64,000 bases of DNA from Escherichia phage vB_EcoM_G53: the sequence record MK327943.1. One strand, written 5' to 3'. Positions within the stretch are counted from its first letter, which is position 1. Every line of letters begins with the position of its first letter. The notes under the pieces were generated by a model that searched no databases, was not told where the DNA came from, and saw only the letters and a list, made by a program, of their open reading frames with translations. The position numbers and the translations under genes are program-made. Shown here piece after piece: positions 11,530 to 11,985 of the stretch.

Positions 11530-11985
11530 TTATTTTAGATCTTCGGCCCAATCTAGTTTTAAGGGTTCTTTGTATTCACGGTCGAGAATAACCGGAATAG
11601 CTACATCACCACTGAATGATAGTTGGCCAACGTTATATGATAACGTTATATGTGGAGTGTAGTCGTCGAAATCATGAGTAGCACCTAAAGCTCGTGCATA
11701 CTGATGACGACATCTAAGATATTCAGAATCAAGAACTAAAACCAGTACAGCGCCGTCGTCAGTTTTCCATACCTCAAAGTGCCCTGATTCAGCAACAGAA
11801 TAACTGCCGCTAGATGTAGTATATGGTATGTTTACACGTGAATAACAAATTGTTGAATGAAGCTTTTCACGTGGTACTGGATTAGGAATTCTTAATTTGC
11901 GCTGGAGGTCTTCCAGCGCATCAAGTGTTAATTCCGAAAATTTAGCTGCGACGTAGAGGCCTTGTGAAAAGTCCTCAAATTTCAT
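11530..11985 (-). CDS. acb1: 2H phosphoesterase family protein, T4 gene 57B equivalent (anti-CBASS Acb1-like)
   Basis: 151 aa; two H-x-T/S motifs (HSTI and HITL) typical of 2H phosphoesterases; position upstream of 57A as in T4. Confidence 0.75.

What the first reader, a model, noticed from the sequence alone, without database searches (positions are those of the whole stretch)
11530..11985. Acb1-like 2H phosphoesterase (gene 57B)
The 151-aa protein has two H-x-T/S motifs (HSTI, HITL), the signature of 2H phosphoesterases, and sits at the T4 57B position. T4 57B encodes Acb1, which degrades cyclic-nucleotide immune signals; this ortholog likely does the same.
Basis: established knowledge. Interest (0 to 1): 0.5.

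Follow-up and report, generated by a model that had tools for sequence, protein, structure and literature searches.

The report
Known phage anti-CBASS nuclease Acb1

Summary
The ORF is real: minus strand, 11530-11985, 151 aa, with exactly two H-x-T motifs (HST 43-45, HIT 112-114). It matches Pfam PF23474 (Acb1) over its full length (E 1.3e-58, 197 bits against a cut-off of 27). It is 85% identical to T4 57B/Acb1 and 62% identical to the crystallised Erwinia phage FBB1 Acb1 (PDB 7T26/7T27, E 1e-58).

Every residue that Hobbs et al. 2022 showed to matter is present:
- the catalytic tetrad H/T/H/T;
- the four base-stacking aromatics;
- the adenine-reading Glu;
- the C-terminal lid.

These residues are conserved, identically or as aromatic swaps, in nearly all of 36 distinct homologues. 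The gene order 3 - 1 - 57A - 57B - ipI is the same as in T4. dN/dS is 0.03-0.1.

The window is a Mosigvirus genome. The identical protein is already in many deposited phages, and one record annotates it as "cyclic phosphodiesterase".

Most likely function: metal-independent cleavage of adenosine-containing cyclic di- and trinucleotides, which disarms CBASS. Activity of this allele was not tested.

Verdict: observation confirmed, interpretation supported, already known, low interest.

The parts
11530..11985 (-). acb1 (gene 57B orthologue) coding sequence, 151 aa plus stop codon (11530-11532)
   Evidence: ORF list. Pfam PF23474 Acb1 E 1.3e-58, 197.3 bits against cut-off 27. PDB 7T26/7T27 E 1.1e-58. 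85% identity to T4 Acb1. dN/dS 0.03-0.10 against orthologues.
11851..11859 (-). First catalytic H-x-T motif, H43-S44-T45 (T4 H44/T46)
   Evidence: Read from the sequence. H43 and T45 are invariant in 36 distinct homologues. Their catalytic role is shown for T4/FBB1 Acb1 in PMC9117128.
11644..11652 (-). Second catalytic H-x-T motif, H112-I113-T114 (T4 H113/T115)
   Evidence: Read from the sequence. H112 and T114 are invariant in 36 homologues. The H44A/H113A double mutant of T4 Acb1 is inactive.
11566..11568 (-). E140 (T4 E141), the residue that contacts adenine N6 and sets the requirement for an adenosine in the substrate
   Evidence: Invariant in 36 homologues. Role taken from PMC9117128.
11533..11556 (-). 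C-terminal lid, residues 144-151 (T4 145-152), including stacking W146 (T4 W147)
   Evidence: Sequence LDWAEDLK against T4 LDWADDLK, one conservative change. The lid closes over the ligand and is needed for activity.
11983..11987 (-). TAATG junction: the stop codon of 57A overlaps the start codon of acb1 by one base, so translational coupling is likely (inferred)
   Evidence: Sequence. T4 has an equivalent ATGATG/TGA overlap.
11985..12215 (-). Gene 57A (tail-fibre chaperone), immediately upstream in the same transcription unit
   Evidence: Pfam GP57 PF17594 E 5.9e-23. Same neighbour in T4, Acj9, Aeromonas, Klebsiella and Vibrio T4-like phages.
12570..12577 (-). TATAAATA, a match to the T4 late-promoter consensus inside gene 1, about 355 nt upstream of 57A. 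It is a candidate promoter for middle/late 57A-acb1 expression (inferred, not shown).
   Evidence: Pattern search. The same motif lies at the same relative position in T4 gene 1. T4 acb1 is expressed middle/late and activity appears about 15 min after infection.

Best explanation
The ORF encodes the Mosigvirus orthologue of T4 Acb1 (anti-CBASS protein 1), a about 17 kDa, metal-independent 2H phosphodiesterase. By homology, it binds CBASS cyclic di- and trinucleotides that contain at least one adenosine (3'3'-cGAMP, cUA, cAA, cAAA, cAAG) in a U-shaped pocket. Four aromatic residues (Y11, W73, F106, W146) stack on the bases and E140 reads adenine N6. The C-terminal lid closes over the ligand. 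The H43/T45/H112/T114 tetrad then catalyses attack of the adenosine 2'-OH on the 3'-5' bond, giving a 2',3'-cyclic phosphate intermediate and then a linear 3'-phosphate product. Destroying the signal keeps CBASS effectors (nucleases, phospholipases and others) from being activated, so the infected cell does not kill itself before phage release. The gene is probably co-transcribed and translationally coupled with 57A and expressed in the middle/late period. What is shown here: family membership, intact active site, synteny and purifying selection. What is inferred from T4/FBB1 experiments: substrate range, chemistry, anti-CBASS phenotype and timing.
For: 1. Full-length match to Pfam Acb1 PF23474 (E 1.3e-58, 197 bits against cut-off 27).
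2. E 1.1e-58 and 62% identity to the crystallised FBB1 Acb1, with a single one-residue gap.
3. 85% identity to T4 57B/Acb1. None of the 22 substitutions falls at a residue named as catalytic or ligand-contacting.
4. H43, T45, H112, T114 and E140 are invariant in 36 distinct homologues down to 29% identity. Y11, W73, F106 and W146 are kept, or replaced by another aromatic, in all but two of them: the 33%-identical L036 has I and S at the first two, and the Aeromonas protein ends before the lid Trp.
5. Synteny 3 - 1 - 57A - 57B - ipI is identical to T4, and 1 - 57A - 57B is kept across Straboviridae.
6. Purifying selection is strong: dN/dS 0.03-0.10, with synonymous sites saturated against T4.
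7. The mechanism and phenotype of the family are established experimentally: substrates, HxT/HxT tetrad, H44A/H113A inactive, more than 300-fold loss of T4 delta-acb1 on CBASS hosts, and 9 of 9 further homologues active (PMC9117128). A transposon screen confirmed the phenotype independently.
8. A 98.8%-identical relative annotates this gene as 'cyclic phosphodiesterase'.
Against: No biochemical or genetic test exists for this exact allele, and I could not find that a Mosigvirus Acb1 was among the nine homologues tested ('RB69' is absent from the paper). My single-sequence AlphaFold model was unusable (pLDDT 37), so the fold rests on sequence homology to 7T26. NCBIfam has no model for it. Many deposited genomes call it 'RNA ligase' or 'hypothetical protein'. 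The promoter assignment is a consensus match inside a coding region, where conservation could reflect the protein sequence of gene 1.
Confidence: 0.93

Rival explanations
1. It is an Acb1-family enzyme whose substrate spectrum has shifted from T4's. For example, it might spare 2'3'-c-di-AMP, the Panoptes decoy, or prefer other cyclic oligonucleotides. It would then evade a different set of defences.
For: There are 22 substitutions relative to T4 Acb1. Within the same structural group, 2H PDE-9 differs sharply from T4 Acb1 on 2'3'-c-di-AMP, and that specificity lies in the enzyme core rather than the lid. Overexpressed T4 Acb1 can trigger Panoptes, which could select for escape.
Against: All named ligand-contacting and catalytic residues are identical to T4. 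Identity of 85% is far closer than PDE-9, which aligns only at E 0.007. Deleting acb1 from T4 did not change Panoptes defence in real infections, so selection for such a shift may be weak. All nine tested homologues cleaved both cGAMP and cAAA.
Confidence: 0.05
2. It is a generic 2H phosphoesterase acting on RNA ends (LigT-like 2'-5' RNA ligase or cyclic phosphodiesterase), as the 'RNA ligase' label in PHROGs and RefSeq suggests. It would take part in RNA or tRNA repair next to the tRNA gene cluster.
For: phrog_755 is described as 'RNA ligase', and RefSeq T4 labels 57B 'RNA ligase'. There is a weak Pfam 2_5_RNA_ligase2 hit, E 0.013. tRNA genes lie 2 kb away.
Against: The 2_5_RNA_ligase2 hit scores 15.9 bits against a cut-off of 27, while Acb1 scores 197. 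The label comes from automatic annotation, not from an experiment. For the 85%-identical T4 protein, activity-guided fractionation identified cyclic-oligonucleotide cleavage as its activity, and T4 delta-acb1 lysates lose all cGAMP cleavage yet grow normally without CBASS.
Confidence: 0.015
3. It is an inactive remnant or a chance ORF with fortuitous H-x-T motifs.
For: Two H-x-[TS] motifs arise in 13.6% of shuffles of this composition.
Against: E 1e-58 to the family profile and to the solved structure. dN/dS is 0.03-0.1. All functional residues are intact. The protein is 100% identical in independent phage isolates, and orthologues occur in 1469 phage records.
Confidence: 0.005

Closest known systems
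Phage T4 Acb1 (gene 57B, NP_049750.1)
   Same: 85% identical. Same length apart from one extra N-terminal Met in T4. Same HxT/HxT tetrad, aromatic stackers, E141 equivalent and lid. Same genomic slot between 57A and ipI.
   Different: 22 substitutions, mostly in the N-terminal region and the segment covering residues 53-80, plus D148E in the lid. Start/stop overlap with 57A is TAATG rather than ATGA-type. No experimental data exist for this allele.
Erwinia phage FBB1 Acb1, crystal structures 7T26 (apo) and 7T27 (3'3'-cGAMP complex)
   Same: 62% identity over 140 residues with one single-residue gap. Catalytic and ligand residues align.
   Different: FBB1 has F and Y where this protein and T4 have W73 and F106, which are aromatic-for-aromatic swaps.
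2H PDE-9 (PDB 9Q2G/9Q2Y, deposited as 'Anti-CBASS protein Acb1')
   Same: Same 2H structural group and same HxT motifs. It degrades 3'3'-cGAMP.
   Different: Only a distant sequence relative (E 0.007 with the single sequence, 2.6e-12 with the profile). Its lid is N-terminal, not C-terminal. It is poor on 2'3'-c-di-AMP and does not trigger Panoptes.
Cellular 2H phosphoesterases (LigT / 2'-5' RNA ligase, Pfam PF13563; AKAP7-type)
   Same: Two H-x-T/S motifs and the 2H fold of the superfamily. There is a marginal Pfam hit and a marginal AKAP7_NLS hit with the profile (E 0.53).
   Different: Below family thresholds. They lack the Acb1 aromatic pocket and C-terminal lid, and they act on RNA ends or 2'-5' oligoadenylate rather than CBASS cyclic oligonucleotides.
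Functional analogues: Acb2 sponge (T4 vs.4), Apyc1, poxins
   Same: All neutralise cyclic-nucleotide immune signals.
   Different: Their folds and mechanisms are unrelated: sequestration for Acb2, MBL-fold metal-dependent hydrolysis for Apyc1. An Acb2 orthologue is not in this window, but one lies in the closest relative.

Membership tests
Acb1 (Pfam PF23474, anti-CBASS protein 1) | Full-length match to the family profile above the curated threshold | tested here: met
   197.3 bits against cut-off 27, E 1.3e-58, protein residues 8-149 on profile positions 1-144/144.
Acb1 (Pfam PF23474, anti-CBASS protein 1) | Catalytic HxT/HxT tetrad (T4 H44, T46, H113, T115) | tested here: met
   H43, T45, H112 and T114 are aligned and invariant in 36 homologues. 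The definition comes from PMC9117128.
Acb1 (Pfam PF23474, anti-CBASS protein 1) | Aromatic base-stacking residues (T4 Y12, W74, F107, W147) and the adenine-specific Glu (E141) | tested here: met
   Y11, W73, F106, W146 and E140 are present and identical to T4.
Acb1 (Pfam PF23474, anti-CBASS protein 1) | C-terminal lid (T4/FBB1 residues 145-152) | tested here: met
   Residues 144-151, LDWAEDLK, are 7/8 identical to T4.
Acb1 (Pfam PF23474, anti-CBASS protein 1) | Compact 2H phosphoesterase fold | tested here: met
   Met by homology only: 62% identity and E 1.1e-58 to the 1.1 A structure 7T26 over its whole length. An independent single-sequence AlphaFold model failed (pLDDT 37), so no fold search was run.
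Acb1 (Pfam PF23474, anti-CBASS protein 1) | Genomic position in T4-like phages: downstream of 57A, next to ipI | tested here: met
   Order 3 - 1 - 57A - acb1 - ipI in the window, in T4 and in 308Ecol101PP. The order 1 - 57A - 57B is kept in Acinetobacter, Aeromonas, Klebsiella and Vibrio relatives.
Acb1 (Pfam PF23474, anti-CBASS protein 1) | Cleaves adenosine-containing cyclic di- and trinucleotides but not cGG, cA4 or 3'2'-cGAMP | not testable with these tools
   Biochemistry is known only for T4, FBB1 and nine other homologues.
Acb1 (Pfam PF23474, anti-CBASS protein 1) | Protects the phage from CBASS in vivo | not testable with these tools
   Shown for T4: more than 300-fold defect of delta-acb1 and the HIDEN-SEQ screen. 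Not shown for this phage.
2H phosphoesterase superfamily | Two H-x-T/S motifs on a pseudo-twofold fold | tested here: met
   HST 43-45 and HIT 112-114. The fold is inferred through 7T26.
LigT / 2'-5' RNA ligase family (Pfam PF13563) | Match to the family profile above threshold | tested here: not met
   15.9 bits against cut-off 27, E 0.013, partial match to residues 70-131 only.

The most novel reading that the evidence does not exclude
The Mosigvirus allele carries 22 substitutions relative to T4, concentrated in core strands and loops rather than at known contact residues. It might therefore have a tuned substrate profile, for example reduced cleavage of the Panoptes decoy 2'3'-c-di-AMP while keeping CBASS signals. 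That would be a natural intermediate in the Acb1/Panoptes arms race.
Probability: 0.05. Interest if true: 0.4.

Novelty: already known. Interest (0 to 1): 0.1.

Why it matters
It matters little beyond correct annotation. The gene shows that this Mosigvirus, like T4, carries a broad-spectrum anti-CBASS nuclease. Its closest relative also carries an Acb2 sponge just outside the window. This helps predict host range on CBASS-bearing E. coli and possible sensitivity to decoy systems such as Panoptes. It also shows that the 'RNA ligase' and 'hypothetical protein' labels on the many deposited copies of this gene should read Acb1.

Tried and rejected
1. A single-sequence AlphaFold2 model of the protein gave mean pLDDT 37 and pTM 0.27. 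It is unusable, so no fold search was run. I did not spend a large-database homologue search to build an alignment, because 62% identity to a 1.1 A crystal structure already settles the fold.
2. NCBIfam gave no hit for Acb1, IPI or the 87-aa neighbour.
3. Rfam at gathering thresholds found only the two tRNAs and nothing near the gene.
4. The 'RNA ligase' reading from PHROGs and RefSeq was rejected. The Pfam 2'-5' RNA ligase hit is below threshold, and the experimental work on the T4 orthologue points to cyclic-oligonucleotide cleavage.
5. I looked for an Acb2 (T4 vs.4) gene in the window. There was no significant tblastn hit (best E 0.65). An orthologue lies just beyond the window's low-coordinate end in the closest relative.
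6. The generic sigma-70 promoter scan gave a count no higher than in shuffles (16 against 13.0 +/- 3.6), so I made no claim of a dedicated early promoter for acb1.
7. I looked in Hobbs et al. for a tested RB69 or Mosigvirus homologue and found none named in the held text.

Full report
**Observation**

The six-frame ORF list shows an ATG-initiated ORF of 151 codons on the minus strand at 11530-11985, stop codon included. The translation contains exactly two H-x-[TS] motifs:
- HSTI at residues 43-46 (HST encoded at 11851-11859);
- HITL at residues 112-115 (HIT encoded at 11644-11652).

The two motifs are not remarkable on their own. In 20,000 residue shuffles of the protein, 13.6% have at least two. 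The significance comes from the context described below.

**Identity of the protein**

- Against Pfam-A, the protein matches PF23474 'Anti-CBASS protein Acb1' end to end: residues 8-149 on profile positions 1-144 of 144, E 1.3e-58, 197.3 bits against a gathering score of 27.
- The only other Pfam hit, the 2'-5' RNA ligase superfamily, is below threshold (15.9 bits against 27).
- PHROGs places it in phrog_755 (E 2.4e-65), whose description 'RNA ligase' is an inherited automatic label.
- Against all PDB chains, the best match is 7T26/7T27, Acb1 of Erwinia phage FBB1 (E 1.1e-58). It covers 140 residues with a single one-residue gap and 62% identity.
- Aligned with T4 gene 57B (NP_049750.1, taken from NC_000866), the window protein is 85% identical. 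The only length difference is T4's extra N-terminal Met, so T4 numbering is the window numbering plus one.

**Source phage and genomic context**

The 2.2 kb around the gene is 98-99% identical to Escherichia phages vB_Eco_NicPhage, 308Ecol101PP and PNJ-9 and to Shigella phage JK45. 308Ecol101PP is classified as Straboviridae; Tevenvirinae; Mosigvirus, and it annotates this gene as 'cyclic phosphodiesterase'.

A translated search finds relatives of the protein in 1469 phage records. In 137 of them identity is at least 99%, and it is 100% in, for example, E. coli O157 typing phage 6 and ATK48.

The neighbours, all on the minus strand, are:
- gene 3, tail completion protein (13008-13598);
- gene 1, dNMP kinase (12220-12954; Pfam DNMK E 1.4e-96);
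- 57A (11985-12215; Pfam GP57 E 5.9e-23);
- this gene;
- ipI (11165-11452; Pfam IPI_T4 E 1.3e-50).

This is the T4 order. The block 1 - 57A - 57B is kept in T4-like phages of Acinetobacter, Aeromonas, Klebsiella and Vibrio. Hobbs et al. had already noted that acb1 lies next to the anti-restriction gene ipI.

**Functional residues**

Hobbs et al. 2022 (PMC9117128) identified T4 57B as Acb1 by activity-guided fractionation. They showed the following:
- The FBB1 structures reveal a compact 2H phosphoesterase fold. An HxT/HxT tetrad (H44, T46, H113, T115) sits under the scissile phosphate.
- Aromatic residues Y12, W74, F107 and W147 stack on the bases, and E141 contacts adenine N6.
- A C-terminal lid (residues 145-152) closes over the ligand.
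- The reaction is metal-independent and cuts 3' of adenosine through a cyclic phosphate intermediate.
- The H44A/H113A mutant is inactive.
- All nine further homologues tested were active.
- T4 delta-acb1 loses more than 300-fold plating efficiency on CBASS hosts and grows normally otherwise.

I aligned 36 distinct homologues: 33 viral-contig loci, T4, AR1, FBB1 and five distant T4-like phages, down to 29% identity. H43, T45, H112, T114 and E140 of the window protein are invariant. Y11, W73, F106 and W146 are conserved or replaced by another aromatic in all but two of them. The exceptions are the 33%-identical L036, which has I and S at the first two positions, and the Aeromonas protein, which ends before the lid Trp.

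None of the 22 differences from T4 touches a named residue. The differences are E2K, K4E, T8Q, E26D, S30K, V33I, I42L, V53I, V56T, P57T, F62Y, E63S, S66E, L70F, Q76D, S79A, T80V, M95Q, P121Q, Q129A, V133I and D148E. The lid differs only by D148E.

**Selection**

Nei-Gojobori estimates against same-length orthologues give dN/dS of 0.03-0.04 within Mosigvirus relatives. Against T4-group genes the values are 0.06-0.10, with synonymous sites at or near saturation (pS 0.67-0.84). The gene is therefore maintained as a protein-coding gene under strong constraint.

**Expression (inferred)**

The stop codon of 57A and the start codon of acb1 overlap as TAATG. T4 has a comparable overlap. This suggests co-transcription and translational coupling.

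A perfect T4 late-promoter consensus, TATAAATA, lies on the minus strand at 12570-12577 inside gene 1, about 355 nt upstream of 57A. The same motif sits at the same relative place in T4 gene 1. Its conservation could also reflect the coding sequence, so the promoter is only a candidate.

In T4, Acb1 activity appears about 15 min after infection, and transcript atlases class 57B/acb1 as middle/late.

**Recent context**

T4 Acb1 is among the most promiscuous viral 2H phosphodiesterases. It also cleaves 2'3'-c-di-AMP and can trigger the Panoptes decoy system when overexpressed. Deleting acb1 from T4, however, did not alter Panoptes defence.

A more distant relative, 2H PDE-9 (PDB 9Q2G), spares 2'3'-c-di-AMP. 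This leaves a small possibility that natural Acb1 alleles differ in specificity. Nothing in this sequence points that way.

**Rivals**

- RNA-ligase or RNA-repair role: supported only by automatic labels and a sub-threshold Pfam hit. It is contradicted by the experimental record for the 85%-identical T4 protein.
- Chance ORF or dead enzyme: excluded.
- Shifted specificity: cannot be excluded without biochemistry, but I rate it at about 5%.

**Limits**

My single-sequence AlphaFold model failed (pLDDT 37), so the fold assignment rests on sequence homology to 7T26. No enzymatic or genetic test of this allele exists in what I could read.

**Verdict**

The gene is a typical, already catalogued member of the Acb1 family in a Mosigvirus genome. 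It is already known and of low interest (0.1).

Noticed in passing
window 10833-11096 (-): An 87-aa ORF just downstream of ipI starts MKTYKEFIAE. This is the same N-terminal capsid-targeting-type sequence as T4 IPII/IPIII (MKTYQEFIAE) and IPI. It falls in phrog_13302 (unknown function), with no Pfam or NCBIfam hit. It has its own TTTACA-N17-TATAGT promoter-like site. It is missing from some close relatives, whose matches start at query position 266-274. It is probably an extra head-packaged internal protein, so a candidate injected anti-defence factor.
   Followed up: partly
window 11487-11515 (-), spacer between acb1 and ipI: The 77-nt spacer holds an early-promoter-like GTTTACA-N17-TACTAT. 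A 12-bp hairpin overlaps it (83-nt fold -18.3 kcal/mol, z -3.5). T4 keeps both the hexamers and a hairpin at this spot, but with different stem bases (GATGAGGTA/TACCTCATC in T4, GGATGATGG/CTATCATCC here), which looks like compensatory change. The role of the hairpin (terminator, RNA stabiliser or promoter occlusion) was not examined.
   Followed up: partly
PDB 8HDS chain A residues 484-618 (not in the window): A profile of 17 Acb1 orthologues matches the C-terminal about 135 residues of the cyanophage Pam3 portal protein at E 3.8e-12. Aligned features are HVT and HIS motifs, the Glu, and a Trp at the lid position. [quoted passage not shown] This would be a portal protein fused to an Acb1-like 2H phosphodiesterase, possibly virion-borne.
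   Followed up: partly
window 4067-4264, 4274-4546, 4556-4861 (all -): Three tandem small ORFs (65, 90 and 101 aa) all end in a shared motif W-V-[SA]-S-S-x-x-C (GWVSSSYSC, GWVASSHTC, AWVSSSALC). Two fall in phrog_899 and one in phrog_4882. All are of unknown function and have no Pfam hit.
   Followed up: no
L043:11242-11508 (phage 308Ecol101PP; equivalent position lies beyond the low-coordinate end of the window): The closest relative encodes an 88-aa protein 64% identical to T4 vs.4 (Acb2, the cyclic-nucleotide sponge) near regB. The window itself has no Acb2 (best tblastn E 0.65). This phage lineage therefore probably carries both anti-CBASS genes, as T4 does.
   Followed up: partly
window 9171-9327 (-): Only two tRNA genes (Arg-TCT and Met-CAT) lie in the tRNA region, against eight tRNAs plus rnaC/rnaD in T4 at the same locus. 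The 130-aa ORF call at 8808-9200 overlaps the tRNA-Arg gene by 30 bases. The relative annotates a shorter CDS that ends before the tRNA, so the upstream TTG start is probably spurious.
   Followed up: no
window 7806-8432 (-): A 208-aa ORF has an internal-protein-like N-terminus (MYTFNEFLAETE) and a Pro/Lys/Ala-rich central stretch (PKVKPAPTTPKPATPKAVAKPEPKPEVKATPKAP). It falls in phrog_2280 (unknown function), with no Pfam hit.
   Followed up: no
whole window, mostly + strand 24260-49109: The T4 late-promoter consensus TATAAATA occurs 18 times against 7.3 +/- 3.0 expected, and no shuffle of 100 reaches 18. The occurrences cluster on the + strand across what the flanking genes (53 and 5 at the low end) suggest is the structural-gene block, as expected for a T4-like late region. 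I did not annotate that stretch.
   Followed up: no
window 2780-3736 (-): A 318-aa protein made of DUF7277 plus DUF7275 (Pfam E 1e-27 and 9e-79; phrog_2141) has unknown function. It lies in the variable region between nudE and the tRNA genes, which corresponds to the T4 e.2-e.8 region.
   Followed up: no
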